Assembly (NCBI GenBank): GCA_035400625.1
Contig: DAOMZT010000001.1
Location: forward strand, 1 to 32,000
Length of the DNA: 32,000 bases
Source: an archaeon
Lineage (GTDB): Archaea > Iainarchaeota > Iainarchaeia > Iainarchaeales > CSSED10-239
Direction: 5' to 3'
The notes under the pieces are model-generated. The model saw only the letters and a list, made by a program, of their open reading frames with translations, had not been told where the DNA came from and made no database searches. A program made the position numbers and the translations under genes. Every line of letters begins with the position of its first letter. Position 1 is the first letter of the stretch. This document shows positions 1 through 30,412 of this stretch, piece by piece.

Positions 1-3000
1 ATGTTCCTGGTGCTTCTACTGGAATGCCTCTTGCTTTACCAAAGAATTTTAATTGTGCGGTGTTACCATTTATCACTACTTTGGCATTCGATACGGTAAC
101 CTCCCCACTTAAGTTGCCAGAGGTTAAATTAACTATTCCACTTAGCTTTTTATCGCTCATATCTAATTTTATGTTACCACTTGCAACATCAACTATTCCG
201 CTGACATTACTCGTAAATAGAGGTGAAACTAACGCGGTTAGAGCTGCGCTTACTTGTACTTTTCCACTAGATATTGTTAATTTTGATGTATTAGAACTAA
301 TTGAACCTTTTCCAGAAGATTTAGATTTTGCAGCCTTTAAATTATCTATTCCTTTAGTTAATTGGTTTATTAAATTTTCTAAAGTTGTTTTTTGTTCTTG
401 TAGTTGATCTAATTTTGTCTTATTCGCATCAGAACTTATTTGATTATTTTTTTCTAGAGCTACAATTTCTGCATTTACATTTGCTAATTGTTTTTGTGCA
501 TCAGATAATGATTTCGTTGTTTTATTTATTGCATCATCTATTTGACTAGAGGTCATAGTTGATATTGTTGATGAATCTAAAGATCCCTGACCAACACTTG
601 CAGTAGCTATTGCTATTGCAATCGCTGTAGCATTGGATGTTGATGTTGTGCTTTCACTAGTTGTTACACTTGTAGTGTCCCCAAATGATGTTCTTAAAGG
701 ATTATACCATAAATAAAATCCATTATTAAAATTGAAACACATTTTTTCGCTTGAGATGCCATTAACCATTGTTTGTACTGAACTTGTTTCTTCAGCTGTG
801 AAATTACTAGAGCTTGTTATGTCCTTTAATACTCCATAAACATGTGTAAAGTTCTTTGTAGCACTTAATGTTGTTGGAACAATATTAAACCTCATATCTA
901 AGTTTGAAGAGGTCTTTAATTGATAGTCAGCACCTTTAGTTGATTCATTTATTTTCTGGAAAATAAACAATGTATTTTTCAGCTCAGAAGTGTCTTTTGA
1001 AGAATATTTGCCGTTTGCTATATATTCTATCTTATAAGCTCCTGAAGATAATACTTGTAATGGCCTTATATCTTTAAATGATATCATTACATTATCCTTT
1101 GGAACCTTTAATATTATACCATCTTGTACTACATCCCAGCCATTGTTGTAATTGTCAATAATTTGTGTAGTTTTTGACAATCCTGTCTTTGCGATCTTAA
1201 ATGGCACACCAAAGTAATGGAAATAATAAGCATTTGTAGGGTTTGTAAAGAATGTGTTTGCTTTATAGCCTGCATTATTATTGTAATAATCTAATAAATT
1301 AGAATTTACTTTTTGAACAGTATATGTTAGTTGTTTATTGTTTGCTGTGCTTTTTAATGCAATGCTGTATGTTCCAGGTGTTGCTATCTCTGTTACTGAT
1401 GAAGCAGGATCTAAAGTTAAAGTCCATGCTCCACTCATAAACTGAACAGCACTAAATATTGTTTTTGTTGTTCCTGAATTTAATGGCCCGTAAGTTTTAG
1501 CATTAATAATAAATGGGCTTATTGTGTCACCATAATATAATCTCATAGTGTTTAGATATTGATTTAAGAACTCAGCAATAATTGCTTGCTCTTGTTGAGT
1601 AGTTGATGCATTATTAATCTTTGCCTCTAATTTTGTCTCACTTCTTAAGAACGAATCTACTGTTGTTTGATAGACATCTCCATCTTGCTTTACATTCTTT
1701 GCAAAGTCATTATCTCCTAATATTGTCATATATTCTTTTATTTTCTCAGAAGACAAGTTTGCAGGAGTTGGTTCACTTGTAGTTGTTGCACCAATCTTTG
1801 CTTCAAGTATTGTAAATTTCCTTAAATCAGTAGGCACTCTGCCTATTACTGCCTTTAGTGCTTGCAATATAGAGTTAGGATCACGATTATTAAATGATTG
1901 ACTTGCAACAATGACTTCTATTGCATCTTTATCTAATGGATTTTCATCTAATAGATATGGATTCTCGGCAATCTTATTTCCTTCAAGTAAGAAATATACT
2001 CCATCTAATAGATAGGTTCTGTGTGAACTATATAAATCTGCTTTTTTAGATATCGCAATCCTTAATTGATCTTGATCACAATATACTCTTCCATAATCAC
2101 AAATGTTATGGGTTATATCTATATCATTATATGTAAATAATAATCTATTAAAACCAAACTTCTTGAAATTCTCTTCTCCTGTAAATCCGTATTTTCTAAA
2201 TCCTTTTGGATCATAACACTCGCCAGGATTTAGAGCTTCACTACCAACGAAATAATCTGTTAATGATGTGGCTTGTGTACCTGGGGTTGTGTCACTAGGA
2301 GTTGTGCCACCAGGGGTTGTTTGGCCTTCAAGAGCAGAACTGGTGTCTACAAGACTATCAACATAACTTAGCCATTGAAGCTTATCTATCAAAGTAATCT
2401 CAACTTCCATTTCGTCCTTTCCTAATCTTGGATTAGAATAGGTTATTCCAAGTAATGCTGTTAGATTTATGGCCTTGCCCACATCATAGTAATCTTTTCT
2501 TAATGCTGTTAATTTCTTAGCAACAGAATTATTGTCTTCACTATCAAGTCTAAATGTCTTTTCTGTAATTTCTGGATTTCTTCTTACTTTAATAGTCATT
2601 ATTTCTGTGGTTTTGCCATCAACATACCTGTATGTCTTCTTTGGCTTTAAATCTTTATTAACATCGCCAATATAGAAATATTGAATATCTCCAACAAATA
2701 AATCATCTACATTTAATACGCTTAGACCAGATAATGCATAGCCCATATCATAACAAGAGTTTATCACTGTTAATTTTCTCTCTACCGTATCTATTCCTGA
2801 GAAATCAAACTCTGTAGGAACAACACTGATACAGTTTTCTGGCAAAATACTAACTGGCCTGTTTACAGAAACAACAATGTCTTTAACATAAGTGTAATCT
2901 TCAATTGCATCGTCGTCGGGCTTGGCGTTTACGGAAATCTTGTATTGTCCAAGAACTTGTGAGCCTTGCACGCCTAACATTCCACTTGTCCCTTTCTTTA

Positions 3001-6000
3001 ATGTCATTTCTGAATTTTCTGGATTGGTGATTATTACTCCACCAAGATTGCTAAATTGTAAACTTAAATCTTCAGAACAATTGTTTCTAATTTGTATTTG
3101 TGCTTTTTCACAACCGAACATTCCGTGTGATGAAAATCCAAAAGAGTTAGGATATCCTTGTGGTGTATTTTCTCTGTAATCTGTATATGGCACTCCTGTT
3201 CCTAATACGCTTTGATAACCAAGCATATTTGATGGATATGTTGAACCTGATAACCAACTTTGATTAATTGATTGTGGAGCCACGCCGGCATATTGATAAT
3301 TATATTGACCCATTAAATAAGGATTGAAATTCATGGTGTTTGTTCCGCCAGCAAATAGACTATAACCATAGCCCATACAATAAGGAACTGTGATTAGAGA
3401 GCTTGGTGTTTCTATACAGCTAACATAATTGTTTAATATTATATTAGGCAAATGCTGTGATGCAATCACATCTACGCCATTTACATTTGGTCTATTTGAT
3501 GAAAATATAATAATTGGATTTGACAATCCGCTTTTTGCAGATTTGTTTGGCCTAAAGATTAATTTTATTGTTGCAGTTTCTTCTGCTACAATTCTGTTTG
3601 CAACTTCTACTTTTTCATCAAGTGATAATTTATGCTCTTTTCCAGAAACCACTACATAATAATCTCCTAGTTTCTTTGTGTTCTTATAGTCTGATTCAAC
3701 ATAAATTCTGCCAACATTTACTGGTTCATCATCTACTGTACAATTATTTTTAATCTTAATATTATATTCTATATCATTTGTATTTTCAACCCTTATTGTT
3801 GTTTCCTGAGGGTTAATTTCTAAGCATTCTACATTATCTACTGAATTACCAAATGTAATTCTTACTTTTATTGGAACTTTAATTATCCATACCTTTGCAA
3901 GAGTCGCCTCACTAACTTTTACTAAAAGATCTCCCTCTATAACTTTTTGTGTCATTAGATCTATTCCTTTCTCTGTTAATCTTGTTGAAACATTTATTTG
4001 TTGATGGATTGTTGGTTCTAAAATTGTGCCTTGTGCATCACTTTTCAGAGATATATAATCAGACCTTATGTTTGTTTCCATGCCTATAATTGTTAATGGC
4101 AAAATAGAATTATTTACCAATACCAAATCAGAATCTTGAGAATAGCCTTTTGAAATATCTAATTGTATATCTAATTTCTCAGGTATTGATTCGATTAGAT
4201 TTTCAGAAACAACTTGCTTTATTGTAACTGTACTATAGCTTTGTTTTTTAACAGTAAATTCCACTTCGTCTTTTATATCTGTTGATGGCAACATTACAGA
4301 ATATGTTCCGTCTCTGTCTGTCTTGCCGTTTGCTACTGTTTTTCCATTTATTCTTATAAAAACTATTGCATCTGTTACTTTGGCACCTGACTCTTCTGTT
4401 ACTCCAACAGTTACTACATTTGGCACAAATGGCACCATTGTTTTTGGAACAACATCAACTATCATTTTCTTTGAAGGCTTAAGATCAAAGTGTATTGTCT
4501 TTGATAATATGATGTCATTATTTGCATAAATATTAAATGTTAATTCATCAGTTATGTCATTAATTACACTTAAATCAATTGAACCATTTACTGTGCCGTT
4601 TGCATTTATATTTCCTAAACTGATATTTGAAAAATCAGTATCATTTATTGGTAAGCCACCACCAGAAGTTATGTTGTATTCGTTTAATACTATTGTTTGA
4701 CCGGTTGGCAAAACAACTAAAATTGCATCTGTTGCTGGCCTTTCAAAACTTAATCTAAAATTAAGTTGATAATCTGTTCCTTCTTTTGCTGTAAACTTAT
4801 CCATTACTTTTTTTTCTGCGCCTGTAGATTTGTCTTTGATTGTAAAAGCATAGCAAATGCCGTTTTCACAACTTGAAGAATCGCCTACAGAAATTATTTT
4901 CTTATTTGCATAAGCATAAAGTGCTTGTCTAGTTGAGGAACTTAAACTTGTTCCTAAAACATCATCTCTTGGAAATCTTAATATCGCGGAACCTTGTTGA
5001 TATTCTGCTCTGTAAAATATAGATTGGTCGGTTATTGCGTTGTCAGTAACTACAATATCTGCATCAATAATATAAGAACCCTCTATTGAGTTATCTAAAA
5101 TAACATTAAACCATTTGGCATCTTTGCGGACTATTGAAGAGGTATCTCTTGACTCTCCACCACAAGGAGTGTAATCAACAGAACCATACATTTTATTTCC
5201 TGCATATTTTATTTTCTTAATATATATTGAATCTTCAGTTACAGAATATGTTCTATTACCACAGGTTTCCCCATCTCCTGTTCTTATATGTGCTAAAACT
5301 TTAGAATATTTTCTATTAACATTTAATAAAAATCTTGCAGTTGCTGATTGACCTGCACTAACAGCTGGCAACTGTTCGCCTTTATCTGAAAAGTAACCAA
5401 CAAACTCTATGCTTGCAGAGCTTGAAGCAAAAGAAGGAATGACTATTGTGTCACTAGTCATGTTTTCTGCTTCTACTGAATATCTTTTTGTAATTATTGG
5501 ATTGCCATCTGTGATTACAGCAAAATACACTTCTTTATCTGCTCTAATAGGTAAAATTGCAAGGCCTGTCTCATTTGTGGTTGTTTGCTTTTCGGTCATT
5601 TCTTTATTTGTGTTTGCATCATATGCCTTTACTATTGCGTTTGAAATTGGAGATCCATCTGAATTTAAAATAGTCAAATTATAAGTACCATAACCAATTG
5701 AAACTAAAATTGGGACAGAAGTTTCTTCTCTTTCCTCTACAACAAAATTATTTGTTTTGCCAGTAAATGGTCCTACAATTGCTTCTGCAAAATAAGTTGA
5801 ATCAGCACTTAGATTAGAAACAATTACTCTGCCTGTTACATCTGTTGTTACAATTTTAACAACTGTGTTATTTAATGCGTCCCATATTTTTACTGTAGCA
5901 TATTCTAATGGATTTAGTTCTGTATCTGTTACACTAATCAACAAACTGGTCTTTGTTTCTGCATTCATGCTTCTTAAAGTAACTTCTGTTGTACTTTCAG

Positions 6001-7225
6001 AAACTGTTGCATTTCTGTTAGTGTAAACAAAATAACCTTCTTTATCAAAAGATAAAACATAGGTTACATTCTCTTTTACTCCAAACTCTACAAGGCCTGT
6101 AGTATCTGTTGTTTTAAGATCAATTGTTGAACTTCCTTTTGATAATTTTACTGAAACACCTTCTAGATATAATCCAGAATCGCTTTTTACTCTTACTTTT
6201 ATAAACCCTACAACATCTTTTTTTACTTCTAATGTTTTTTGATTTATTCCTGTAGTAATTGTTACTGGTGTTTGAACATTATTAATATAATCTAAATCAT
6301 TTATTCCTGCATAAATATTTTTTGGATCAGAAACTAATATTTTATAGCTCTTTGAAACTTGAACTAACTCTGTTGTAAAAATACCATTTGCATTTGTTGG
6401 ACCGCTATCGACCATTATTCCTGTCAAATCATAAATAGAAACTAACATGTCTGGTAGAACAATTCCCTTGTCTTTATCTTTTATTGTTATTGATAATGTA
6501 GCATAGTTTACAGAACTACTAAATATGATTTCTCCGCTTGTGCCTGTTGCTGGAATATTTATTTCATAATCGCTTCTGTTTTTTACAGTTACATCTAAGC
6601 TACCACAATCTGTTGGAATGTCATCTAACGTGTGAGAACCGCCTTTAACAATTACTGTTTTTTCATAGTCTGTTCCAAGACAACTAAACTCTACATTTAA
6701 TTCAGAAGTTATTGCTTCTCCTGATTGTGTTTTAAACAAAATGGTTTTTGTGGTTGAAAATGCACCTTCTTTTAGATGAACTACTTGCGATTTCTTGGTT
6801 GGATCAATTGTGTATTCTTCTCTATCTGAAAATAAATATTTAGTGTCTGCTAATTTTAAGATATAGGTTGAATCTTTACTTAAATCTTTAAAATAGAAAA
6901 AACCTTCAGTATCTGTTTCTAGAGTTTTGGATTGACCGTTTAGTTTTACTTTTAAGATAGTGTTTGCAATTGGGTTGTTTGTTTCATCTAGAAACTGAAC
7001 AGCTGTTCCGTGTGGTCCGCCTGTTATTCCAAAAACTGGGAGTAATAAGAAGATAATCAAAGCAATTATTGCAAGATTAAAAATTATAAAAAGAGGGAAG
7101 GTTGGTATTCCGTTTTTTTCTAGAGGATCAACTAGTTTATATAAATTAATTCCCTTTTCCTCTAGCCTATCAAGCATTGCAAAATATTTATCTTCTAATT
7201 TATAATAGAATTCTTTTAATCCCAT
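1..7225 (-). CDS. Giant membrane-anchored beta-sandwich surface protein, paralog A (N-terminal 2408 codons; 3' end lies beyond window start)
   Basis: Hand translation of the minus strand from ATG at 7225..7223 (codon first bases at 7225, 7222, ...) gives MGLKEFYYKLEDKYFAMLDRLEEKGINLYKLVDPLEKNGIPTFPLFIIFNLAIIALIIFLLLLPVFGITGG... The frame stays open to position 2 (...AQLKFFGKARGIPVEAPGT). Checked base by base at 1..58, 2270..2329, 3299..3421 and 7141..7225. It is missing from the ORF track because there is no stop inside the window; an ATG-to-stop ORF starting at 7225 would otherwise have been listed. Collinear similarity to the 3116-aa product of 9241..18591. Confidence 0.85.
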   Translation of the reverse strand, partial: MGLKEFYYKLEDKYFAMLDRLEEKGINLYKLVDPLEKNGIPTFPLFIIFNLAIIALIIFLLLPVFGITGGPHGTAVQFLDETNNPIANTILKVKLNGQSKTLETDTEGFFYFKDLSKDSTYILKLADTKYLFSDREEYTIDPTKKSQVVHLKEGAFSTTKTILFKTQSGEAITSELNVEFSCLGTDYEKTVIVKGGSHTLDDIPTDCGSLDVTVKNRSDYEINIPATGTSGEIIFSSSVNYATLSITIKDKDKGIVLPDMLVSIYDLTGIMVDSGPTNANGIFTTELVQVSKSYKILVSDPKNIYAGINDLDYINNVQTPVTITTGINQKTLEVKKDVVGFIKVRVKSDSGLYLEGVSVKLSKGSSTIDLKTTDTTGLVEFGVKENVTYVLSFDKEGYFVYTNRNATVSESTTEVTLRSMNAETKTSLLISVTDTELNPLEYATVKIWDALNNTVVKIVTTDVTGRVIVSNLSADSTYFAEAIVGPFTGKTNNFVVEEREETSVPILVSIGYGTYNLTILNSDGSPISNAIVKAYDANTNKEMTEKQTTTNETGLAILPIRADKEVYFAVITDGNPIITKRYSVEAENMTSDTIVIPSFASSSASIEFVGYFSDKGEQLPAVSAGQSATARFLLNVNRKYSKVLAHIRTGDGETCGNRTYSVTEDSIYIKKIKYAGNKMYGSVDYTPCGGESRDTSSIVRKDAKWFNVILDNSIEGSYIIDADIVVTDNAITDQSIFYRAEYQQGSAILRFPRDDVLGTSLSSSTRQALYAYANKKIISVGDSSSCENGICYAFTIKDKSTGAEKKVMDKFTAKEGTDYQLNFRLSFERPATDAILVVLPTGQTIVLNEYNITSGGGLPINDTDFSNISLGNINANGTVNGSIDLSVINDITDELTFNIYANNDIILSKTIHFDLKPSKKMIVDVVPKTMVPFVPNVVTVGVTEESGAKVTDAIVFIRINGKTVANGKTDRDGTYSVMLPSTDIKDEVEFTVKKQSYSTVTIKQVVSENLIESIPEKLDIQLDISKGYSQDSDLVLVNNSILPLTIIGMETNIRSDYISLKSDAQGTILEPTIHQQINVSTRLTEKGIDLMTQKVIEGDLLVKVSEATLAKVWIIKVPIKVRITFGNSVDNVECLEINPQETTIRVENTNDIEYNIKIKNNCTVDDEPVNVGRIYVESDYKNTKKLGDYYVVVSGKEHKLSLDEKVEVANRIVAEETATIKLIFRPNKSAKSGLSNPIIIFSSNRPNVNGVDVIASQHLPNIILNNYVSCIETPSSLITVPYCMGYGYSLFAGGTNTMNFNPYLMGQYNYQYAGVAPQSINQSWLSGSTYPSNMLGYQSVLGTGVPYTDYRENTPQGYPNSFGFSSHGMFGCEKAQIQIRNNCSEDLSLQFSNLGGVIITNPENSEMTLKKGTSGMLGVQGSQVLGQYKISVNAKPDDDAIEDYTYVKDIVVSVNRPVSILPENCISVVPTEFDFSGIDTVERKLTVINSCYDMGYALSGLSVLNVDDLFVGDIQYFYIGDVNKDLKPKKTYRYVDGKTTEIMTIKVRRNPEITEKTFRLDSEDNNSVAKKLTALRKDYYDVGKAINLTALLGITYSNPRLGKDEMEVEITLIDKLQWLSYVDSLVDTSSALEGQTTPGGTTPSDTTPGTQATSLTDYFVGSEALNPGECYDPKGFRKYGFTGEENFKKFGFNRLLFTYNDIDITHNICDYGRVYCDQDQLRIAISKKADLYSSHRTYLLDGVYFLLEGNKIAENPYLLDENPLDKDAIEVIVASQSFNNRDPNSILQALKAVIGRVPTDLRKFTILEAKIGATTTSEPTPANLSSEKIKEYMTILGDNDFAKNVKQDGDVYQTTVDSFLRSETKLEAKINNASTTQQEQAIIAEFLNQYLNTMRLYYGDTISPFIINAKTYGPLNSGTTKTIFSAVQFMSGAWTLTLDPASSVTEIATPGTYSIALKSTANNKQLTYTVQKVNSNLLDYYNNNAGYKANTFFTNPTNAYYFHYFGVPFKIAKTGLSKTTQIIDNYNNGWDVVQDGIILKVPKDNVMISFKDIRPLQVLSSGAYKIEYIANGKYSSKDTSELKNTLFIFQKINESTKGADYQLKTSSNLDMRFNIVPTTLSATKNFTHVYGVLKDITSSSNFTAEETSSVQTMVNGISSEKMCFNFNNGFYLWYNPLRTSFGDTTSVTTSESTTSTSNATAIAIAIATASVGQGSLDSSTISTMTSSQIDDAINKTTKSLSDAQKQLANVNAEIVALEKNNQISSDANKTKLDQLQEQKTTLENLINQLTKGIDNLKAAKSKSSGKGSISSNTSKLTISSGKVQVSAALTALVSPLFTSNVSGIVDVASGNIKLDMSDKKLSGIVNLTSGNLSGEVTVSNAKVVINGNTAQLKFFGKARGIPVEAPGT
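454..556 (-). repeat. Conserved nucleotide island shared with 10425..10527 (encodes coiled-coil motif MTSSQIDDAINKTTKSLSDAQKQLANVNAEIVALEKN)
   Basis: Ungapped hand alignment of 454..556 with 10425..10527 gives 75 of 103 identical bases, including 22 of the first 24. The surrounding paralog sequence is too diverged to align at nucleotide level by eye. Confidence 0.8.
7028..7225 (-). other. N-terminal anchor module of paralog A: conserved cytoplasmic motif plus single TM helix
   Basis: YYK-LEDKYFAMLDRLEEKGINLYKLVDPLEKNGIPTF aligns with AYKWLETKYYSFSDWLTKKGINLNKVNSFLEEKGIPAF of the 3116-aa protein (20 of 37 identical, one gap). It is followed by the hydrophobic stretch PLFIIFNLAIIALIIFLLLLPVF (about 7028..7102). 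Confidence 0.7.
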
Positions 7226-7382: not shown

Positions 7383-9191
7383 TTATTGCTTTTCTGGGCC
7401 ACAAGCCCTATTATCGCCACCTTTGACTTGACTGTAACATGTCCATCGTTGTATTCCATTTGCTGATGACACTATTGTTGTAGATTCAAAATTATTAGCA
7501 GAAACTGGATTTAAGTAGCCCTTATCTATAACACTCAGATTTGACCAATTATTGTCAGGAGTAAAATAAAACTCACTAAAATCTTCACGTAAACGTATTT
7601 CAATATTAGTGTTTACATCTTTATATTGGTCTTTTATTATATATCTTGGATCTGTTTCTTTAAATTGCAGAATTGTTATTGCATTGTCTATTTCTGAACA
7701 AGTCAATTCTGTCTGTTCCGCTACATTATTTTGTATTGTTATGTTATTTTGTTCATCATACCAACCTAAATTAACTTCCCAGATAGGAGCTGATTTACCT
7801 TCTTTTAAGAATAGACCTAATCCGCCTACAAGTGTTGGCATTTGGTTTATATTATCAAAAACAGTTTGTGTGTAATTATCGTTATAATTACCTGGAACGT
7901 CTGTAAAATAGTTTTTACTTTTTTTTGATTTGGCATTTACCTCAATTTCAGAGATATTAATATCTGGTGCTCCTTGGGTTTGCCCAAGCACTATGTTGCC
8001 TTTCATTATCAGCCCATTATTGTAAGTAATTGTTTGGCCGTGTCTGTTATTTACTAAATTTGCTATAAGAGATTGACTATAAAGCTCTTTAAAGGCATAA
8101 TCAATTTGGTGTTTATCATCATATGTTATTGAAGTATTTGAATTTGGACCAAAATTAACTTGCTGTATTGGAAGTAAACCTTGTGGCACATCACCATGTA
8201 AGGTTTTGGGGATTTCATGACAATATTTGCCAGAGGAACCTACTTTGTTAGGTGTTCTAAAGAAATATTCTCTTGGAAGACAGGTTCCTGGATCACAATA
8301 GCCAAGCCTTGCCTGCTCTAAGGTGTTATGGATTTTTGGGGAGAAGAACCCTGTATTTCCGTTTTCAGGGTCTGCAGGATTTACTGCTCTTTCTGTTTCG
8401 TTGTCTAAAACAATATTTCTTGCTGTTCTTAATGCCTGAAGACCACGCCATGGCATATATATCTTGTAAATCTGCCTACTTAATACTGGCCTTTGTATTA
8501 CTTGGTTACTTTTAGTTCTTAGAACAGTTACTATTGGCAAAAGTTCATAATTCTCATCAGCAAGCTGAGTAGTGTCTAATGTTAAAAAGAAAGAGCCATT
8601 ACAGTTGGTATCATTTTGACCACAATCAACAACATCTGCTCTCTCTCCTCCTGCCTTAAAAACATCAACAACTACACTAACAAATTTATCTTTTGCATCT
8701 TCATTTTCGCTAGCAGATTCAAGGTGACAACAACCAGGATCTCCATATTGACAACCCTCATCACATACTATTGTTGTACCGGCATTTGTTTCTGTTCTTA
8801 TATCATATCCTGGAGGATCCATTTTATATTTTAGATTAAAAAGTATGCCTTGAGCAAAGTATGCGGGAAATGCTCTTTCAAAAAAATTGTCTTTTATAAA
8901 CCATTGAGTAAAATCATCCCAGTTCATATCCATTTGACTTCTTCTTACTTCCATTGGATGTCTAGACATATGTTCTTCCCAATTGGATCTTAAGGTAATT
9001 ATAAATGTATTAAAGGCATCAGCTCTTGCAAGATCAGCCATGGTCATAAGATCTGACATTGCAGATTGATCTTGAATAAGAGAGAGATATGTGTCTTCTG
9101 TGTTAATCATATTAAAAATTAAAGCTAAGGCTACAGATACCAATAACAAAGAGATAAGAGCAGTAAATAATGTAAAGCCTTTTCTATTCAT
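7383..9191 (-). CDS. Large Cys-rich secreted protein with prepilin-type (class III) signal peptide; pilin-like or minor-pilin-like
   Basis: ORF track, 602 aa. The N-terminus MNRKG/FTLFTALISLLLVSVALALIFNMI has basic residues, then Gly, then about 22 hydrophobic residues, which is the prepilin cleavage pattern. Position +5 is Thr rather than Glu. The mature part has 12 Cys in local clusters (CDEGCQYGDPGCC, DCGQNDTNC, CDPGTC, WTC...ACGPEKQ). I recognise no other domain. A 49-nt spacer follows the giant gene stop. Confidence 0.75.
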   Translation of the reverse strand: MNRKGFTLFTALISLLLVSVALALIFNMINTEDTYLSLIQDQSAMSDLMTMADLARADAFNTFIITLRSNWEEHMSRHPMEVRRSQMDMNWDDFTQWFIKDNFFERAFPAYFAQGILFNLKYKMDPPGYDIRTETNAGTTIVCDEGCQYGDPGCCHLESASENEDAKDKFVSVVVDVFKAGGERADVVDCGQNDTNCNGSFFLTLDTTQLADENYELLPIVTVLRTKSNQVIQRPVLSRQIYKIYMPWRGLQALRTARNIVLDNETERAVNPADPENGNTGFFSPKIHNTLEQARLGYCDPGTCLPREYFFRTPNKVGSSGKYCHEIPKTLHGDVPQGLLPIQQVNFGPNSNTSITYDDKHQIDYAFKELYSQSLIANLVNNRHGQTITYNNGLIMKGNIVLGQTQGAPDINISEIEVNAKSKKSKNYFTDVPGNYNDNYTQTVFDNINQMPTLVGGLGLFLKEGKSAPIWEVNLGWYDEQNNITIQNNVAEQTELTCSEIDNAITILQFKETDPRYIIKDQYKDVNTNIEIRLREDFSEFYFTPDNNWSNLSVIDKGYLNPVSANNFESTTIVSSANGIQRWTCYSQVKGGDNRACGPEKQ

Positions 9192-9240: not shown

Positions 9241-12200
9241 TTATGACAAATTATTATTCATTGCAAAATTATCATAAGTTGCATAGCCACTTCTTGGAAC
9301 AACCACGAAAAATATTTTGTTTGTTGCATATGTTGAAAATAAAGGACTTAATTGTCCTTTATCGCCATTTTGCTGTAATATCATGTGTTCGCCATTTTCG
9401 TTTTTGCCAACATATAAAACAACATGAGGTGGTTGGCAATTTTTAAGTTTTTTGCTTGTGCCTTCTATGCCAATTACAACACCAGGCACTAACACATTAT
9501 CTATTGATTCAATATTATCTTTTCCTTTTTGCCAAACAATTCTGTTTCTTGTGCCGTAATTTTGACTTGTGCCTGTGTCATTATCACAAGCATTTCCTGA
9601 ATTGTAGTTTGCACCATATAACTTATTAGAAACTTCTGTAACAAAACTCGCACAATGATGTGGCACCATTGGTCCAACATCCACACACACAGAACCTAAA
9701 CCTTTCTCACTAAATGTACAACGTGCATAATCTTGTAATTTGTTTTCATGTTGGGTGTACATTCTCATTTGTAGTTCTTCAAGACTTGTGGAAACTTGGG
9801 TTGCATCTGTTTCGATTTTCTCTTCTATTATTTCTGACCAATCTTGAGATTGCACTTGAGGGGTATTTGCTTGTAATAGTTCTTCTTGGTGCTCAGAGGT
9901 TTGTATTTCTTTAATTTCTTTATTATCTGTATAATATATTGCTACATCATTACTTATTGCAGGTATTTCTTTTTCAATAATTACATCGTATTTATTTGCT
10001 TGTTTTATTACTGTTACTTTATACCACACATTCTTTTCAAATTCAGTGACTGGAATTCCAAGATATACTAGATTTGCCAATTGTCCATTCTCGTTTGATT
10101 GACGATTTAAATAATCTTGACCAGCTTGGTTTGATACTGCAACAATAATCATATCAATTGCAAACTTTCCAGCTCCTTTTAAGAATTTCTGAAGTTTAGT
10201 TGGTAATTTTAAAGATTTAATAGAGTCAACAGCATCATCCATACCTTTTACAATATCATCTGAAATGTCTACCATACCTGATCCACTAGCGCCCGCTTTA
10301 ACTTTTCTTAAATCATCAGCAGCATTAGTTAACTTCTGCCCTGCATCTTCTAAACCCAATTTTTGTTTATATAATGTCTCTAGTCTTTTCCTTTTAATTG
10401 CAGGAATTGCTATTCTGTTTTTTTCAAGAGCTACGATTTCTGCATTTATTTTTGTTAATTGCTTTCCAGCACTTGCTGCTGATTTTGTAGCTCTTGCTAT
10501 TGCATCATCTAATTGGTTTGTTGTCATTTTTGTTATTTCTGAGCTTTTGACCATGCCTGTTAAAGCAGAATTTGCAGAAGCAATATCTGTTTTGATTGTT
10601 GAAACATTTCTAATCTTGCCTTCTAAAGCACTATCAATAACAACATTTCCTGCACTATCTGGAGTTAATCCTCCTAGTCCTTTGCCTATATCATCTATTT
10701 GTGATTTTGCACTATTTAATGCGCTTTCATTTCTAACAAGTTCATCCCATTGTAGTTTTAATGCAGGATCTGTTGGAGGAACATTACCAAATGACTCCAT
10801 TTTAATTGTTGCGATTTCATCTAATTGAGATTGAATATTTGTACTAGTGCTTGATATTGATTTTTGCAAAGCTTGACTATCCGCAAGAGTCATTACTCTT
10901 GGACCACCACCTGAGCCAGAACTTATGTGCTTTAGTACTTTATCTATGTTGTCTAATTGTTTGTTTATGCTTCCAATTCCAGCGGAATCAATCCTTGTTG
11001 AAATACCACTGACATCTACTTGTCCGCCAACAATTGGTGCTCCATTAACTTGTAATATTAAATCATCGACCTCTGTTAAACGCGAAGATATTTGCTTTTC
11101 TTGATAAGTTAATATTCTTGATCTTTGTGTTTCTGCTACATTTTTTGGAGTACCAATTGCCTTTAGTTCGCTTTGAACTTCTCCTAGGCGTGTTTTTAAT
11201 TGATTACTTACTTCTGTTGCATCACTAATAAATCTTGTACGTTCAGCTTGTGTTATTGTTGTTGTAGTTATTGATGATCCCGAAGTTCTTAAGAAATCAT
11301 CAACATCTGCTTTAAAGCTTACTCCATTAGGTTTAAACTTACCATTAAGCGCTTTCTCATCAGGATAAGTTCTAGGATTTGCCCAAAACCCATCTTTTGC
11401 AGCTGCATTGAATCTTCCTGTACCGTAACTTGTGTTGTTTGCAATTATTTCACCAAATCTTTGTTGTTCTGCTTTTGTTAGTTTATAAAATCCTGATGTT
11501 AAATCTGAATTAGGTATACTTGCTTTAGTTGCACCTGTACTTAATGGATCAATACCAATCTTACGCAAAATTCTATTTAATTCCGTTTGTTCAGCTCTTG
11601 TTTTTGCATAGAACCAATATTGTGCATTTGGGTGCCTTGAAGTATATTCTATATATTTTATCAATTTTGCTTCGCTTTTTATAGGGGCAAAAGGAGTGCC
11701 TGTTGTTATTGTTTTTGGAGTTACATGGACTAATTTTTTGTCTAAAAACATAGTTGGTGTGCCACTGCCACCACCTGTTATGTTTATTGTATCTGGCAAA
11801 TCATCCATTATTCCCATTAATGGAGTTTCAAATTCTTCTATACTCATAGTATAATCAAATGGATCTACTTGACCTATGCCTTGTCTTGTAAGATCATGAA
11901 TACCAACTATGGTTTCAGCAGCCCCTGCATTCTCTGATAAATCTCCACTATAACCATCTTTGGCTAATTGCTGAGCCAAAGCATCTGCTTCTGCTTTACC
12001 ACTGCCTCCACCCATTATGGCATTTGCAACAGCACCCAACGCATTACCTACAAAGCCAAAGATTTTTTCAACAACCCTTGCAAGGTCTCCTACAACAGGT
12101 ATCTTATGAATAACATCCATAACTTTTTCTGTAATTCCTGTTTCATTACCATACATCGTTACTGTTGGAAGACCACAACCAATACCACAATTCCAAATCA

Positions 12201-15200
12201 AATCTTTCAATAATTTTGCATGACCAAAAATAGGAATAACTTTAGAAATTATATTAACACCTGATGTTAATGTTGCACAGCTTAACATACAACCAGTAAA
12301 ATATGTACCAGCTCTTTTTAACGCTCTTTTGTTTCTTGCGCTTTTCTCTGATTGGGTTTCTTTAAATTCACATTCTTTTGGCTTTACAAACATTGTGGCC
12401 TTGCCACCTAAACTATCATAATATTTCTTTAAGGCATCACAATATTCTTCTTTGTCATTTTTATTATATTCTTTATTCCATGAAACAAAAGCATATATTG
12501 ACTGCTCATTACTTTCTGCATCTCCTGAACTTAATTTACCAGATATGTTGTCTCCAATTCCTATTAGTTGCATTGGGGTTATACCATAATTTAATAAAGT
12601 AATATTAACATCTGCTTTTCTTTCTGAATTTAACTTTCCTATTTTGAATTTACTCTCTGCAGTTATTTTTACAGTCTTATCAGACCAATGTGCAACATCA
12701 CCAATGTCGCCTAAGAAACAAACATTAAAATCAGTTGGCTTGTCTTTTTCAAGAACTAAAGATAATTCATTAGTATAGTCTTTTCCCTGATAAATTAATT
12801 TAGTTCTTACCCCGATTACCTCTTCTGCTTTTATTTTCACTTGTTCATCAAGTGCAGAATTTGCAGTAAGGACAACACATTTCTCTAAAGGTGCTAATTG
12901 CAATTTATTGTTCTGTGCCTTTAAAGACAATGCACCATAATCTGCTGCTTCAAAAGATAATATCAACATATAGTTTTTATCTTTGGAGATACAGATATCT
13001 GCGGGAGTTCCATTGATTATGTCTTTTACATTTTCAGAAACTTGCTTAATAAATTCTTCTGAATATTTTGATTCCTCTCCTTCTTTGTTTATTGAAAATG
13101 TATCATTAACTATTAAATTTATCTTTTCTGGACGAGGGCTTGTAACTGCAACTGGATCATTAAAATATAGTTTTGCGATAGCATTTTCATTCTCTTTAAT
13201 TGTTCCAATTGAAACATCTAGTTGACTGAAATTTTTGACATTGTCTGTCCTTAACTGGAATCTTTCATCGCTATCAAACACTTGTTTTGCAATTGTTTTG
13301 CCAAACTTTTCATCACCACTAATCAATGTTAACCAAGTATTGCCCATATTTGATTTTTTGAAAAAAGTAGTGTCTTTTGGCAGGTACATTCTTACATTTT
13401 CTATACTTTTTGCACAAGGACCCGTCTTATTATAATCTATAGTTACATAGAAATATGCTTTTTCTGGTGCCAGAGTTTTTTGATCCTTTGTTGCAATCCT
13501 GCCATCTATTGTAATTTTATATCTTCCACAACCCTGCATTTTATTATCTACATGTATGATATTACCAATCATCTGCAAACCGCCAGAAGTTGGACCGACA
13601 TATTCTCTTATTTCATAGTTTTTAATGGTTGGATATTTTGCTACTTCTTTGGTGTTTTTTAAAACAATATCTAAGGTTCTTTGAGATAGTGAATCGTTCT
13701 GTAGATAGATAGGAATATTCTTAAATGGCTTTAATTGATCTGACTTTAACAAATCAGAAATCGCACAACCATTCTGTTGTGCAGTTGCAATAGAACAACT
13801 TGTTTGTGCAAGTTCATTATTTAGTTGTCTTGAAGCATCTATGACTACTTTATGTAATTCTTGTATTTTTTCTAATATAAGTTCTGCTGCACCCTCTGCA
13901 TCACAATAGCCATCATCTTTACAATCAGTAACAATCTTTGGCATTGGAATGTCCATTTTTTCATCAGTATCACAGATTTTTACAGCTATATCCTCGTCAA
14001 TTCTTTCTAAATCTGCTACTGTGTCCTCATCAGGTGCTTCTACTTCTGTTGAAATCCAAATAATTTCTGAAGTTACCATGCTTAATGCCGTTCCATTTAC
14101 TGGATAACCAATTAATGTAAATCTATTCTCTGTTCTAGGAGTAAAATACCTGGTTGGTTTTACTTTCAAATAGAAAGCAACTGTTTGACCAACACCAATA
14201 AACGGAACAGGAGTTGCAGGAACTAAAGCAACACCTGTGCCCTCGCCAAACACCATAGTAAAGTCATTAGGTGACTTGTATGGGTGTGGATCATAATCTA
14301 TGTATGCAATAGGCTCTGCACATTGGTTAGTGACTCTAATATACATTGGTTTTTCTTCTCCTATTTTTGTGTGGAAAGTAATTTTTTTCTGATCAACTTT
14401 TAAACAACTAGCTGATGAGATTCTAAAATCAACAGTAAATTTTGCAGTTATTGGGTCCTTTGTACCAGGGGAAATTGCAGAAACTTTATAATACATAGTT
14501 GCTGTTGTTGCATTACTTACTTTGCCTTCATAGATAACACTTACTTGTTTTGTTTGACCAGGCTTTATTTCCTCAAAAGTTAATGGCTCAATCTTATCTT
14601 GAATATTAGAAACATATTTCTCCTCTAGCCTTGATATCTGTATGTCTTTTAATGGATATTTTCCTGTATTTGTTATAGAAAAAATAGTTTTATTTGAGGC
14701 CATTATCTCTTCATTATATTGGCTCATTGAAACAACTGAAACTGGAGGAGTTATTTTTATAGTTTTTGAATAATCAACCAAATCAATATTTAATTTTGTG
14801 TTTGGTAAAGCATAATATGCATTTCTCCAAGCAATCTCAAAGGCATAGCTTTTTGTTGTTTTTCTGGCTTTGTTGTTTTTAATAGTTATTGTGTAATCTG
14901 TTATCTCTTCGTTTGGTTCTATTGTTACAGAAGGGAGAATAACTTCTAGGTTCTCATCTTTCTTTATTACCGTGCCTTTTGCTTTTAATAGCTCTGGAGT
15001 TATAGTTATTGCTTTTTTACAATTGTTGACTAATGTTGCGGTTATCTCATTTTCAGAACCCTCACTAATGCCAACATAACTATAGATCACAAGAGGTTTT
15101 ATATCTAAACAATTTTCTTGCACTTGCCCCTTATAAATATTAATTTCAATATCTTTTGCTACTTGCTTGTTTCCGACAAAACCAAATATTGTTAAAACAT

Positions 15201-18200
15201 ATTTTGCTGTTGTAAACTTAATTTTTGGATCAATTACAGAAACAACTTCTATTTCTGAAGGGGTTGTTGGGTTAAGTGCTACTGGCAAATGAGCTTCTAT
15301 AGTTAATTCAGCAACTTCATCAATTGGTGTAATCTTGTAGGTCAAATCTGTAATCTTTGCATTGCCTTTATTCACTAACTTTATAATCTCTATTTCTTGA
15401 CTAATTTCATTTCCAAAGTTTATTGAGATGCTATCAGGGCCAGAGATAATGCCTGTATCGGCAATCATTAGTTGTCTTGTGTATGGTGCATAGCCTGGAG
15501 CAGTAACTTCAAGATTTGGTCTTGTGCTAGAAAAATTTTGATTAATTATGTATTTCCCTGCCTTTGCTTTTTTAGTACTTGAAATTAGATCCCCAAACTC
15601 ATCTTCTAATTTTACTAATGCGTTGTTTATTGGGCTTTTGTTGTCTGCATCTTTTACTTCTACTGTTATTGGGGTGTTGTATGGCAAAACATCTAAAACA
15701 TTTACTTCTAAGTTTCTTTTATTCTTTATTTCAAAAGTTAATCTTTTTTCTGTAACTTTGGAGTTAAAGGTGGATCTTACATCAATGTGAGTTACGCCTG
15801 TGTTTTTTGCATTAAATAATAAATATTGTTTTTTATAAATTCCTGATTGTAATAAAACAGCCATAGAACTTAATTTTGTTTCTTGAGAATCCAATTTTGA
15901 ACTTGGAAACAAATCTGTGTCTTGATAGTTTATTAGGCCAATAATAGGATGACTTGCATCAGTTTCAGTATCAATTGCTAATTCTCCTGATTGAGTGGTA
16001 TAATAATTTAATTCTAATAAATACATCTCATCAACAGTTCCAAAAAAAGTTTCATTAGAATAGTCAAAGCCACCTTTGTCTAAAAACCTATATTCTACAC
16101 AAAGGTTGTCTGAACATTCAGCAGGAGTTTCAAGGACCTTGAATACTTTTTCCTTTGTTTCTGCATATAGGCCTTGTCTTGAAGAGATGTTTCTTGCGGT
16201 TCCTAATGTTGAGTCTTCTGGATCTCTATGGATTTTTCCTTCACTATCTTCACACCATGCCCTGTACTTTAAAAGCAAATCGCCAATCTCTGTTGCTTTA
16301 ACCTTTAACATTATTTGTTTGTTTGTTACTGACTCAGATGGCCAATATAACTCTAGCCATTTGTTTAAAATATTAGGAGAACCAACATTATCATAATCAA
16401 TGGACTGTTGTCCTTCACGATAGGTTGTAGAATATTTGAAATTTGTAGTGTCTGCCTTAAAGCCAGTTATACCATAAGTCATGTTTTCAGAATCATCTTC
16501 AGAATCATCTCCTGCTCTAAAATGCACTCCACATTTTTTTACATCTATTGGCAATTGCAAATCAAATACCAAATAATAATCATTGTCTTTACTTAATATG
16601 CTTGTTGATTTGTTTTGTAAATCCCTAATCTCTAAAAAAGAAACTATTGGATTAAGATCCTCAATCATTGGTTTTAAGCTTACTGATAAATTCTCCCCAT
16701 CCCCTACTACTCCAGAAGCAACAGTAACATTTCCTTCACCATCTATATATTCCACAATCAAATCCTTGTAGCCTTTGGTTAAAAATTTTGCTGGATTTTC
16801 AGAATCAATATAACCTTCATAAAGAATCTCTCCTGTTTTTGTTTTTACTGTTACATAACCATCAGTTACTGGGTTACCATAAATGTCTTTTAATTGCAAG
16901 GTTACTTCTTTTGATGCATCATTTATTATTAAGATTACCTTGTTATCTTTAAATTGATCAATAGTGATTTCTTGAGAAGCATTTGAATCTCCAGCAATGC
17001 CTACCACCTTATAGGTTTCATCTTTTTGTGTAAAGACATAAGCATAACCTGTTATGTCTACCTGTAATGGACCTAAGCCTATCGGCACATATTTGCCATT
17101 TAATAGTTTATAAATTAAGACATTTGCTGAAGAAAGTGGCATGTTTGCCCCATCATAAACATATATTGAAAGTTTGTAGGTTTCTGCAGAACCAAACTTA
17201 ACAAGCCTTACTTCTAAGTCATTACTAGTATCTATATTCGCAAAATATTGTGAACAAAGATAATCCTCTTTACATGCAGTAACAACATAATCTTTATTTT
17301 TATCAAGGCCTGTAAATGTAACTTCGCCATCAAGTAAGGTTGTTTTTTCAGAAATTAAATTCCCATTAAGATTATATAAAGAAACATCAGCATCACTTAC
17401 TGGGCCAGCCACACTTTCTACAACCATAACTCTTAAATCTGAACTGCCTTTTTTTAAGGTTGCTGTAAAAGTGTCTTCGCTTTTTTGTAATCTAAATGTT
17501 TTGTCCTCTTGGTCACTATCGTATGTTCTGTAATCTTTTTTTGTTACAACAAATCTTATTACAGAACCTGCTTTTTCTGTAAATGTGAATTTGCCTAGTT
17601 GGGTTATGCCATATGCTATTTTTTCGCCAGCAACATTATAGACTGTAACTTCACAATCATCTAATAAATCTCCAGTGTCTGATACTGCCAAGATTGTGCC
17701 CCTTGCATCAAGTCCTTCTAATTGAGCTGAACCCAAATCAAACTGTAATTCTATAGGTATTATTTCATCATTACTTGATATAGTTATAGATTGAGAAACT
17801 GTTTGGTAGCCATCAGCCTCAACAACTAATGAGATAGACTTACCTAATGGTGCATCTGTAAAACTAATTAAGTTTGAGCTTCCTGGTGTTGCTATTTGCT
17901 CTTCTGATTTTCCACTGACTGTATAGTTTAAAGTCGCTTTGTATTTTGAAATGGCTTTTTTTGTTTCTGAATCTGTTACTGTTAATTTGAAATTACCACG
18001 AGTCACATTTTCTGAAAATTTTATTATTATTGGTTCTCCTCTTGTAAACAGGTGACTTTTATCAAAATCTGCAAATCCTGATTTTGTGGCTATAATTGCA
18101 TAATCTGCTCCTGACTTAAGAGCAAGCCTTGCCTTATGACCATCACTTATTGTCCCACTAAATTTTGTCTTGTTTTTTAAATCATAAATCTTAACATCTA

Positions 18201-19875: not shown

Positions 19876-20476
19876 CTTACTCTAGGCTTTACTCTTACTA
19901 CTTTTTGCTTATTTGGTTTTTTTGTTTTAGATTTTGGTCTAGGTTTAGGCATGTTTGTGCCTGCTCTTGCTCTTGCTATTGCTCTATTAGATTGTACAAC
20001 TCTATTTAAAGAATTAAATAAGCGTTTATGAACCTTTTGCACACCTTCAGGAATTCTATTTAATTTTTTTCGCTTTATAGTCGGATCTGGACTTTCATCT
20101 AAACAATGAAAATGAATTTTATTTTCTTTTGGATTTTTACCTATTGTTCCATGAAAAGCATTTTCAAAAAATTCAGTTTTATAAGTTCCAGTTTTCTTCT
20201 TATGTCTGCTTTTTGAATACCAATCAAATTAAATGCTATTTCCATAAGATCAGAATGTGTTGCAAAATCACAATTCCAATGTTTTGGTGCTACAAGAACA
20301 TAATCTTTTCCTTGATAGCTTGTACTAAAAAACTTGTACTCATTATGGTTTTTAGATTTTTTATGAACAACAAATATTGAATTCCCTATTTCTGCTTTGT
20401 TGTAATATGTTTTTAGAATTTCTTGCATAGACATATTTTTTTGATAATCTGGAAGTCCAATATTTTTACTGCTCAT
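19872..20476 (-). pseudogene. Frameshifted gene (or -1 frameshift site); hypothetical protein with a weak HIT-like motif and a basic C-terminal tail
   Basis: The listed 111-aa ORF (20141..20476) overlaps a second open frame with no start codon, 118 sense codons at 20228..19875 plus a TGA at 19874..19872. It reads FDWYSKSRHKKKTGTYKTEFFENAFHGTIGKNPKENKIHFHCLDESPDPTIKRKKLNRIPEGVQKVHKRL...KPRVR* and its TGA overlaps the phosphatase ATG. That frame is -1 relative to the 111-aa frame. VLVAPKHW plus KIHFHCL loosely resemble HIT-family motifs. Confidence 0.6.
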
Positions 20477-30317: not shown

Positions 30318-30339
30318 ATTTGTATTTATGAGAAAAATG

Positions 30340-30347
30340 CATATAAA
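30340..30347 (-). promoter_or_regulatory. TATA-like box upstream of the Lrp/AsnC gene
   Basis: The minus strand reads TTTATATG followed by 22 nt and then ATG(30317). Confidence 0.35.
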
Positions 30348-30357
30348 TATTGCGATT

Positions 30358-30374
30358 TCACAAAAATTTTGTGA
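30358..30374. promoter_or_regulatory. 17-bp perfect palindrome TCACAAAA-A-TTTTGTGA in the divergent promoter region
   Basis: 8-bp arms. A third half-site, TTCACAAAA, at 30397..30405 abuts the TATA-like box of the 496-aa gene. Confidence 0.35.
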
Positions 30375-30404
30375 GAAAGATATATAAAGCTTCAAATTCA
30401 CAAA

Positions 30405-30412
30405 ATATTTAA
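30405..30412 (+). promoter_or_regulatory. TATA-like box upstream of the 496-aa gene
   Basis: ATATTTAA followed by 22 nt and then ATG(30435). Confidence 0.35.

What the first reader, a model, noticed from the sequence alone, without database searches (positions are those of the whole stretch)
7383..9191. Unusually large, disulfide-rich prepilin-like protein wedged between the giants
MNRKG/FTLFTALISLLLVSVALALIF fits a class III signal peptide, but the mature protein is about 575 aa, far larger than a structural pilin. It carries 12 clustered Cys and lacks Glu at +5. Established: large pilin-like proteins lacking Glu5 (GspK/PilX-type minor pilins) cap or prime fibres rather than polymerise. Inference: this may be a fibre tip or adaptor presenting a binding domain, functionally tied to the flanking giants.
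Basis: partly seen in the sequence, partly recalled or inferred. Interest (0 to 1): 0.7.

Follow-up and report, generated by a model that had tools for sequence, protein, structure and literature searches.

The report
Pilin-like partner of archaeal giant proteins
This gene encodes a 602-residue surface protein of a tiny DPANN archaeon that starts like a type IV pilin, has a body unlike any solved structure, and always sits between giant surface-protein genes, so it is probably a dedicated part of a large and costly cell-surface apparatus.

Summary
The ORF is real: window 7383..9191, minus strand, 602 aa, 12 Cys, N-terminus MNRKG|FTLFTAL. It belongs to an unannotated family with 185 representatives at the 50% clustering level. 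All named members come from Iainarchaeia/Diapherotrites, including the complete Ca. Forterrea genome.

In 176 family members with intact N-termini, position -2 is K/R in 95%, -1 is always G or A, and +1 is always F. Position +5 is T/S and never E/D. The leader is about 5-7 residues and is followed by about 26 uncharged residues. This is the archaeal class III (prepilin) signature. Lack of Glu5 is normal in archaea.

AlphaFold models are confident (pLDDT 89 and 92) and show a 75-residue N-terminal helix plus an alpha/beta body. The body has no Foldseek relative in PDB or BFVD and no GspK, PilX or PilY1 profile match. Eight Cys are invariant. The other four lie in a lineage-specific insertion.

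The order giant A, this gene, giant B, giant C holds in almost every locus with enough flanking sequence, even for the weakest homologue examined. No pilus ATPase, platform or peptidase gene lies within 10 kb.

Best reading: a prepilin-processed, pilin-like subunit dedicated to a giant adhesin module. Whether it caps a fibre or anchors the giants is untested.

The parts
7383..9191 (-). Whole ORF of the pilin-like protein (602 aa plus stop)
   Evidence: It is 100% identical to NCBI 'hypothetical protein PK655_00010 [archaeon]' (P0001).
9177..9191 (-). Predicted class III leader, MNRKG (residues 1-5), with the cut expected after G5
   Evidence: Family statistics: -1 is G in 137 and A in 39 of 176 members; -2 is K in 112 and R in 56; leader length has mode 5 and median 7.
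9114..9176 (-). Hydrophobic H-domain, FTLFTALISLLLVSVALALIF (residues 6-26). Positions +1 to +8 (FTLFTALI; family consensus F-[T/N]-L-F-T-A-L-[V/I]) are almost invariant
   Evidence: Sequence logo: 3.2-4.3 bits at +1..+8 against mostly about 1.8-2.4 bits in the middle of the segment, apart from three conserved positions. Weak, sub-threshold hits to ComGF/GE/GD/GC and N_methyl cover only this region.
8961..9185 (-). One continuous predicted N-terminal alpha-helix (residues 3-77)
   Evidence: AlphaFold2 model m78ebb1429cbd, pLDDT 89.4. The 369-aa homologue has the same helix at residues 8-81.
8202..8960 (-). Conserved alpha/beta core of the ectodomain (residues 78-330). It holds the motifs YKIYMPWRG and LEQARLGxCDPGTCxPR and Cys 190, 197, 299, 304, 324
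   Evidence: Distant homologues align mainly to residues 1-330. Invariant columns are listed.
8682..8801 (-). Lineage-specific insertion (about residues 131-170) carrying the four clustered Cys (143, 147, 154, 155)
   Evidence: It is present only in the closest relatives in alignment A1. pLDDT is 62-69 here and above 80 elsewhere, apart from the first 10 residues and residues 401-410.
7386..8201 (-). More variable C-terminal beta-rich domain (residues 331-602), with Cys 498 and the terminal pair Cys 585/597
   Evidence: This domain is shorter in the 369-aa homologues.
9241..18591 (-). Giant A (3116 aa), upstream partner 49 bp away. It has a single N-terminal membrane helix at residues 90-108 and beta-sandwich repeats
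   Evidence: A giant sits directly upstream of the homologue in nearly all loci.
2..7225 (-). Giant B (2448 aa; the window holds the first 2408), downstream partner 157 bp away. Its N-terminal membrane helix is at residues 46-64
   Evidence: It is followed off-window by paralogous giant C (1741 aa; 24% identity over about 800 aa).

Best explanation
The gene encodes an archaeal pilin-like (class III signal peptide) surface protein that is a dedicated component of a conserved giant-surface-protein module of Iainarchaeia.

Shown:
- The N-terminal signature is conserved across the family.
- The models show a 75-residue N-terminal helix followed by an alpha/beta body with no detectable structural relative.
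- Eight Cys are invariant.
- The order giant A, this gene, giant B, giant C is near-universal. All genes are on one strand, usually with gaps of about 50-260 bp.

Inferred:
- After Sec insertion, the archaeal prepilin peptidase cuts between G5 and F6.
- The almost invariant FTLFTAL helix stays in the membrane, or enters the base of a short type IV filament-like stalk assembled by machinery encoded elsewhere.
- The disulfide-stapled ectodomain binds or organises the three giants, which are anchored by their N-termini and look like adhesins. The protein would thus act as an anchor, adaptor or assembly nucleus for a host- or surface-attachment apparatus.
For: - Class III signature in 176 of 176 intact N-termini: -1 is G or A, -2 is K/R in 95%, +1 is F in 100%, leader median is 7, and the uncharged stretch has a median of 26 residues.
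- Positions +1..+8 are far more conserved than most of the rest of the hydrophobic segment, which argues for specific recognition rather than a generic anchor.
- The signature matches the criteria for archaeal prepilins in PMC4371748.
- One homologue is named 'prepilin-type N-terminal cleavage/methylation domain-containing protein' by NCBI.
- 65 of 83 members give weak N-terminal ComGF hits.
- The models are confident, with a long N-terminal helix.
- Gene order is conserved in 19 GTDB species loci and in further metagenome loci, down to the weakest representative hit, P0202.
- Each giant has a single N-terminal membrane helix and Ig-like, MG or CarboxypepD_reg repeats.
- One relative's giant A ends in an NlpC/P60 domain.
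- The four genes come to about 2.7% of the 839,632-bp Forterrea genome, taking the giant C length from a close relative.
- Diapherotrites reference genomes are reported to carry type IV pilus genes (PMC8561730).
- Archaeal T4P loci often pair class III proteins with large adhesin or S-layer-like proteins and conserved Cys (PMC4858521).
Against: - No prepilin peptidase, FlaI/PilB ATPase or TadC/PilC gene was found within 10 kb of the module in any locus, in the 32-kb window, or in its 10-kb right-hand extension.
- I could not check the rest of the genome.
- The matches to pilin N-terminal models are all below curated cut-offs.
- The globular part does not resemble any solved pilin head.
- No physical interaction with the giants has been shown. 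Gene order proves linkage, not mechanism.
Confidence: 0.5

Rival explanations
1. It is a true tip or priming minor pilin, in the manner of GspK/XcpX or CofB/TcpB. It would be the first subunit of a type IV fibre built from small pilins encoded elsewhere, and it would present its large head, and perhaps the giants, at the fibre tip.
For: - The same class III signature applies.
- The protein is large and occurs once in the only complete genome scanned (one locus in CP045477.1).
- +5 is never acidic in any member. If the cognate machinery were of bacterial type, this would fit a cap subunit.
- The N-terminus resembles the bacterial GFTL motif more than archaeal pilin models.
Against: - No GspK, PilX, PilY1 or CofB-like sequence or fold match was found.
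- No small pilins or assembly genes were found in about 550 kb of related loci.
- A non-acidic +5 residue is common in archaeal pilins (PMC4371748).
- The partner giants have their own membrane anchors, so they do not need a fibre to be displayed.
Confidence: 0.2
2. It is an ordinary Sec-dependent membrane protein. The N-terminal segment would be an uncleaved signal anchor, or would be cut by signal peptidase I, and the resemblance to prepilins would be coincidental.
For: - The hydrophobic stretch is long enough to span the membrane.
- The window protein has A21-L22-A23, which could pass for an AxA site.
- No peptidase gene is nearby, and the pilin-model hits are below threshold.
Against: - In the family, the residue equivalent to A23 is L, V or I in about 82% of members, so no signal peptidase I site is conserved (offsets 16-18).
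- A generic anchor would not keep [K/R]-[G/A]-F-[T/N]-L-F-T-A-L nearly invariant in a family that is otherwise about 25% identical.
- G and A alternate at -1 with K/R fixed at -2, which is the pattern prepilin peptidases require (PMC4371748).
Confidence: 0.2
3. It is a maturation or assembly factor for the giants, such as a chaperone, an isomerase or a Cys/His enzyme, rather than a structural subunit. It would be tethered to the outer face of the membrane by its N-terminal helix.
For: - It is always co-encoded with the giants.
- It has invariant polar residues, including R68, R249 and R307, and near-invariant ones such as H288, N289, E216 and K426, plus two invariant Cys (324, 498) that are far apart in sequence.
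- The fold is novel, so an enzymatic function cannot be excluded.
Against: - No enzyme or chaperone family matches in Pfam, NCBIfam or PDB.
- Eight invariant Cys are most simply read as four disulfides. This is an inference, because I could not inspect model coordinates.
- Short homologues keep only 2 Cys.
Confidence: 0.1

Closest known systems
Large class III signal-peptide proteins of archaea: Sulfolobus bindosome sugar-binding proteins and the 'relatively large pilins' linked to H. volcanii PilB4/PilC4 (PMC4371748)
   Same: All are archaeal proteins several times the size of a pilin. They carry a prepilin-type processing site and a hydrophobic N-terminal helix, which is used to hold a functional globular domain at the cell surface.
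   Different: The body here is not a substrate-binding protein and matches no known family. The gene is tied to three giant surface proteins, not to a bas- or pil-type ATPase/platform operon.
GspK/XcpX and PilX-type tip minor pilins of bacterial T2SS and T4P
   Same: They have a pilin-like N-terminus without Glu5 and are much larger than the major subunit.
   Different: There is no T2SSK or PilX profile match in 83 members and no structural match. The organism is an archaeon, where a non-acidic +5 residue is ordinary. No neighbouring minor-pilin set or secretion machinery was found.
CofB/TcpB-type large initiator minor pilins of type IVb pili
   Same: A pilin-type N-terminal helix is followed by extra beta-rich C-terminal domains. 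These are the nearest analogue for 'a pilin that carries a large head'. This comparison is from my own knowledge.
   Different: No Foldseek or sequence hit to these structures was found. CofB and TcpB keep Glu5 and are encoded inside pilus operons.
Competence pseudopilus minor pilins ComGF/ComGE/ComGD (NCBIfam NF041002, NF041013, NF040982)
   Same: These are the best-scoring known models. They align to residues 3-54 in 65 of 83 family members.
   Different: Every score is far below cut-off (17 bits for the window protein, against 80 needed), and only the N-terminal helix aligns. ComG proteins are about 100-150 aa and bacterial.
Adhesin and S-layer-like accessory proteins in archaeal T4P loci (Makarova, Koonin and Albers 2016, PMC4858521)
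   Same: Class III signal proteins are co-encoded with very large secreted or membrane-anchored proteins, and conserved Cys are expected to form disulfides.
   Different: Those loci are defined by an ATPase plus TadC. Here no such genes are near, and the giants (2,200-3,100 aa each) dominate the locus.

Membership tests
Archaeal class III signal-peptide (prepilin-like) proteins | Small residue (G/A/S) at -1 of the processing site | tested here: met
   G5 in the window protein. In the family, G in 137 and A in 39 of 176 members. Criterion from PMC4371748.
Archaeal class III signal-peptide (prepilin-like) proteins | Charged residue at -2 | tested here: met
   K4 in the window protein. K in 112 and R in 56 of 176 members, which is 95%.
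Archaeal class III signal-peptide (prepilin-like) proteins | Short leader at the extreme N-terminus, followed by a hydrophobic H-domain of about 20 residues | tested here: met
   The leader is 5 aa (family mode 5, median 7). The window protein has 26 uncharged residues after the cut site, ending at E32, and the family median is also 26.
Archaeal class III signal-peptide (prepilin-like) proteins | Extended N-terminal alpha-helix | tested here: met
   Helix at residues 3-77 (pLDDT 89.4 model) and at 8-81 in a 369-aa homologue.
Archaeal class III signal-peptide (prepilin-like) proteins | Match to curated pilin N-terminal models (Pfam N_methyl PF07963; archaeal pilin models) | tested here: inconclusive
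   N_methyl scores E=0.5 for the window protein. 21 of 83 members hit it, all below cut-off. No archaeal pilin model appears in the list.
Archaeal class III signal-peptide (prepilin-like) proteins | A prepilin peptidase (PibD/FlaK/EppA) in the same genome, and actual cleavage | not testable with these tools
   Only about 45 kb around the gene could be read, and none was found there. PMC8561730 reports type IV pilus genes in Diapherotrites reference genomes.
GspK/XcpX or PilX tip minor pilins | Sequence match to the T2SSK or PilX families | tested here: not met
   No such family appears for any of 83 members at E<=1, and there is no PDB sequence hit.
GspK/XcpX or PilX tip minor pilins | Structural similarity of the globular domain | tested here: not met
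   Foldseek against PDB gives a best E of 1.0 for the full-length model and 0.033 (probability 0.09) for the minimal homologue. No pilin is among the hits listed.
GspK/XcpX or PilX tip minor pilins | Encoded with other minor pilins and T2SS/T4P assembly genes | tested here: not met
   No other class III-like ORF and no assembly genes in the fetched loci.
PilY1/PilC tip adhesins | Match to PilY1/PilC beta-propeller or DUF2341 domains | tested here: not met
   No Pfam hit and no Foldseek hit.
Bindosome-type class III substrate-binding proteins | Body homologous to solute-binding proteins | tested here: not met
   No SBP family in Pfam or NCBIfam and none in PDB.

The most novel reading that the evidence does not exclude
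The pilin-like protein and the three giants together form a previously undescribed surface organelle of Iainarchaeia. In this organelle a prepilin-processed subunit with a new fold nucleates or anchors a bundle of multi-thousand-residue adhesins. Some of these may carry lytic tips, such as the NlpC/P60 domain in one relative. The organelle would serve as the host-attachment or feeding apparatus of these reduced-genome archaea and would borrow the type IV pilus machinery only for processing or insertion.
Probability: 0.25. Interest if true: 0.75.

Novelty: new variant of a known kind. Interest (0 to 1): 0.55.

Why it matters
Iainarchaeia/Diapherotrites are uncultured archaea with genomes of about 0.8 Mb, and it is debated whether they are free-living or host-dependent. 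A four-gene module that takes roughly 2.7% of such a genome must be central to how these cells meet their surroundings. This is especially so because it is conserved in gene order across the whole family of pilin-like proteins.

The pilin-like gene is the smallest and best-conserved part of the module. It gives a high-confidence structure model with no known relative. That makes it a practical marker for finding the module, and a practical target for antibodies, proteomics or co-folding.

The family also adds to the repertoire of non-pilin proteins that use class III signal peptides in archaea.

Tried and rejected
- Pfam, NCBIfam and PDB sequence searches on the protein and on an 83-member alignment gave nothing above threshold.
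- Foldseek of the full-length model against PDB and BFVD, and of a 369-aa minimal homologue against PDB, gave no meaningful hit.
- I tried to see what lies beyond giant C. A homologue search with its N-terminal 814 aa returned nothing. The metagenome scan returned one contig that ends inside giant C.
- I searched for small pilins sharing the N-terminus with a 45-aa query and got nothing.
- A scan of about 550 kb of related loci found no further class III-like ORFs of note and no GFTLIE-type (Glu5) pilins.
- The 10-kb extension to the right of the window holds no pilus genes.
- I considered whether the giants' 'KGIP' motif before their membrane helix is a class III site. I rejected this because the -1 residue is not conserved; giant C has M, A or L there.
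- I tested whether the window's giant A tail is NlpC/P60-like, as in a relative. Motifs line up, but Pfam, a PDB profile search and hhalign (probability 0.7%) do not support it.
- Literature searches found no description of this family or module.

Full report
**1. Observation**

The window has about 31% G+C and carries archaeal genes: an XPD helicase, an AsnC-type regulator, PEP synthase, LemA and DUF2207. The ORF at 7383..9191 on the minus strand encodes 602 aa. It begins MNRKGFTLFTALISLLLVSVALALIF and contains 12 Cys.

The ORF lies 49 bp downstream of a 3116-aa ORF (giant A, 9241..18591). It lies 157 bp upstream of a 2448-aa ORF (giant B) that starts at 7225 and leaves the window. The protein is identical to an NCBI 'hypothetical protein [archaeon]' that is found on contigs up to 813 kb long.

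- The mature length would be 597 aa, not about 575 aa.
- Only eight Cys are family-invariant.
- The four tightly clustered Cys belong to an insertion seen only in close relatives.

**2. The family**

The word-indexed search found 66 homologues. Of these, 53 are full-length (30-73% identity, 529-608 aa). The exhaustive search of 50%-identity representatives found 185 hits, of which 122 have E<1e-10. Distant members (about 330-640 aa) align mainly to residues 1-330.

All named sources are archaeal: 'archaeon', Ca. Iainarchaeum/ainarchaeum, Diapherotrites, GW2011_AR21, and the complete genome of Ca. Forterrea multitransposorum, CP045477.1. No Pfam, NCBIfam or PDB sequence family matches above threshold.

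**3. The N-terminus**

Among 202 family proteins, 176 have an intact N-terminus. The other 26 look like truncated gene calls. In those 176:
- Position -1 is G (137) or A (39).
- Position -2 is K (112) or R (56).
- Position +1 is always F.
- The next residues are [T/N]-L-F-[T/S]-A-L.
- Position +5 is T (164) or S (12) and never acidic.
- Leader length has mode 5 and median 7.
- The uncharged stretch after the site has a median of 26 residues.

Information content is 3.2-4.3 bits at +1..+8 but mostly about 2 bits in the middle of the hydrophobic segment. This argues for specific recognition rather than a generic anchor.

These features match the published criteria. All prepilins need G/A/S at -1. 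A charged -2 residue is critical for archaeal prepilin peptidases. [quoted passage not shown]

A signal peptidase I site is not conserved. The window's A21-L22-A23 corresponds to positions where the would-be -1 residue is L, V or I in about 82% of members.

Weak, sub-threshold hits to ComGF, ComGE, ComGD, ComGC and N_methyl cover only residues 3-54. NCBI named one homologue a prepilin-type cleavage/methylation domain protein.

I conclude that a class III signal is likely, at about 0.75. Cleavage itself, and the presence of the peptidase in this genome, could not be tested. One paper reports type IV pilus genes in Diapherotrites reference genomes (PMC8561730).

**4. Structure**

AlphaFold2 with an 83-sequence alignment gives mean pLDDT 89.4 and pTM 0.83. 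The model has one helix at residues 3-77, an alpha/beta region, and a beta-rich C-terminal part. Confidence is low mainly in the Cys-rich insertion at about residues 131-170. A 369-aa homologue gives pLDDT 92.3 with the same plan.

Foldseek finds nothing credible in PDB, with best E values of 1.0 and 0.033 and TM-scores at or below about 0.13 normalised to the query. It finds nothing in BFVD either. GspK, PilX, PilY1/PilC and CofB-like membership is therefore not supported.

The eight invariant Cys (190/197, 299/304, 324/498, 585/597) are most simply read as four disulfides in an extracellular protein. The protein has nine N-X-S/T sequons, against 6.8 expected from composition.

**5. Gene context**

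Where flanking sequence exists, the gene order is as follows:
- Giant A, about 2,500-3,100 aa.
- The pilin-like gene.
- Giant B, about 2,200-2,560 aa.
- In distant lineages only, a membrane protein of about 160 aa.
- Giant C, 1,576-2,826 aa.

All genes are on one strand, usually with gaps of about 30-260 bp. The order holds in the 19 GTDB species loci. It also holds for distant homologues P0054, P0059, P0065 and P0066, and for the weakest representative I looked up, P0202.

There are few exceptions. One contig (L032) has giant A and the pilin-like gene but no giants B or C. One locus (L007) has housekeeping genes inserted. Another (L009) has giant A split.

Each giant has a single N-terminal membrane helix that follows a conserved cytoplasmic motif (YYxLEDKYYxxLDxLxxKGIxLY...). 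Each also has Ig-like, MG or CarboxypepD_reg repeats. Giants B and C are paralogues.

No ATPase, platform or peptidase gene, and no further convincing class III-like ORF, occurs in any locus or in the extended window.

**6. Mechanism**

The shown facts are the class III-type N-terminus, the novel ectodomain and the obligatory linkage to three membrane-anchored giants.

My preferred inference has confidence of about 0.5. In it, the protein is processed like a prepilin. It uses its conserved helix to sit in the membrane or in a short filament base. It serves as the anchor, adaptor or nucleus of the giant-adhesin assembly.

**7. Comparison and novelty**

Large archaeal proteins with class III signals are known, for example the bindosome subunits and the large Haloferax pilins (PMC4371748). 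Archaeal T4P loci often include large adhesin or S-layer-like proteins and Cys-rich components (PMC4858521).

What is new here:
- The family itself, which is unannotated and has a fold without relatives.
- Its strict pairing with three giants away from any pilus machinery.
- Its apparent restriction to Iainarchaeia.

I found no paper describing it. I rate it a new variant of a known kind, with interest 0.55.

Noticed in passing
window 9244-9774 (C-terminal ~175 aa of giant A); L004 648-9938: In a relative (L004), giant A ends in a clear NlpC/P60 peptidase domain (residues 2979-3065, E=2.7e-23). The window's giant A tail lines up by motif (HHCASFV; LVPGVVIGI...PPHVVLYVGK). However, Pfam, a PDB profile search and hhalign (probability 0.7%) do not support homology.
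   Followed up: partly
window 18310-18591 and 7030-7225; L001 19366-19530: All three giants share a conserved cytoplasmic N-terminal motif (YYxLEDKYYxFLDxLEEKGIxLYKxVDPLEKxGIPxFP) directly before their single membrane helix. No Pfam or NCBIfam model covers it.
   Followed up: partly
L007 20214-20699; L029 19048-19536; L031 18535-19035; L033 19311-19787: In distant lineages a protein of about 160 aa sits between giants B and C. The L007 copy looks like a multi-pass membrane protein. This gene is absent from the window's clade.
   Followed up: no
L005 655-990; L006 1339-1674; L020 1362-1697; L021 369-704; L025 1087-1422: In the Forterrea-like clade a conserved 111-aa membrane protein lies just upstream of giant A. 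The window's own 111-aa ORF (20141..20476) is unrelated. In the window's clade LemA sits upstream instead.
   Followed up: partly
L003, L004, L028 (contig ends): At least three independent metagenome assemblies end inside giant C. This suggests internal repeats that short reads cannot resolve. The called length of giant C also differs between otherwise identical contigs (1741 against 1669 aa).
   Followed up: no
window 12250-12330 (giant A residues ~2090-2115): Giant A has an internal uncharged stretch preceded by KRAG (KRAGTYFTGCMLSCATLTSGVNIISKVIPIF) within a Cys-dense region (Cys 2051-2139). It scored below the membrane-helix threshold I used.
   Followed up: no
window 22976-23046: The DUF2207 protein (22976..24817, minus strand) ends in a poly-glycine tail (SSSGGGGGGGGFGGGGGGGGGAGAR), encoded by a GGN tandem repeat.
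   Followed up: no
window 30325-30410: Two copies of a 41-bp unit lie in the divergent region between the AsnC-type regulator gene and the 496-aa ORF. The regulator's listed GTG start (30401) is probably too far upstream; a contig carrying the same genes has it called at 274 aa.
   Followed up: no
L029 857-1420: In the GW2011_AR21-like lineage, a 187-aa protein with a weak Exosortase_EpsH hit lies about 900 bp upstream of giant A.
   Followed up: no
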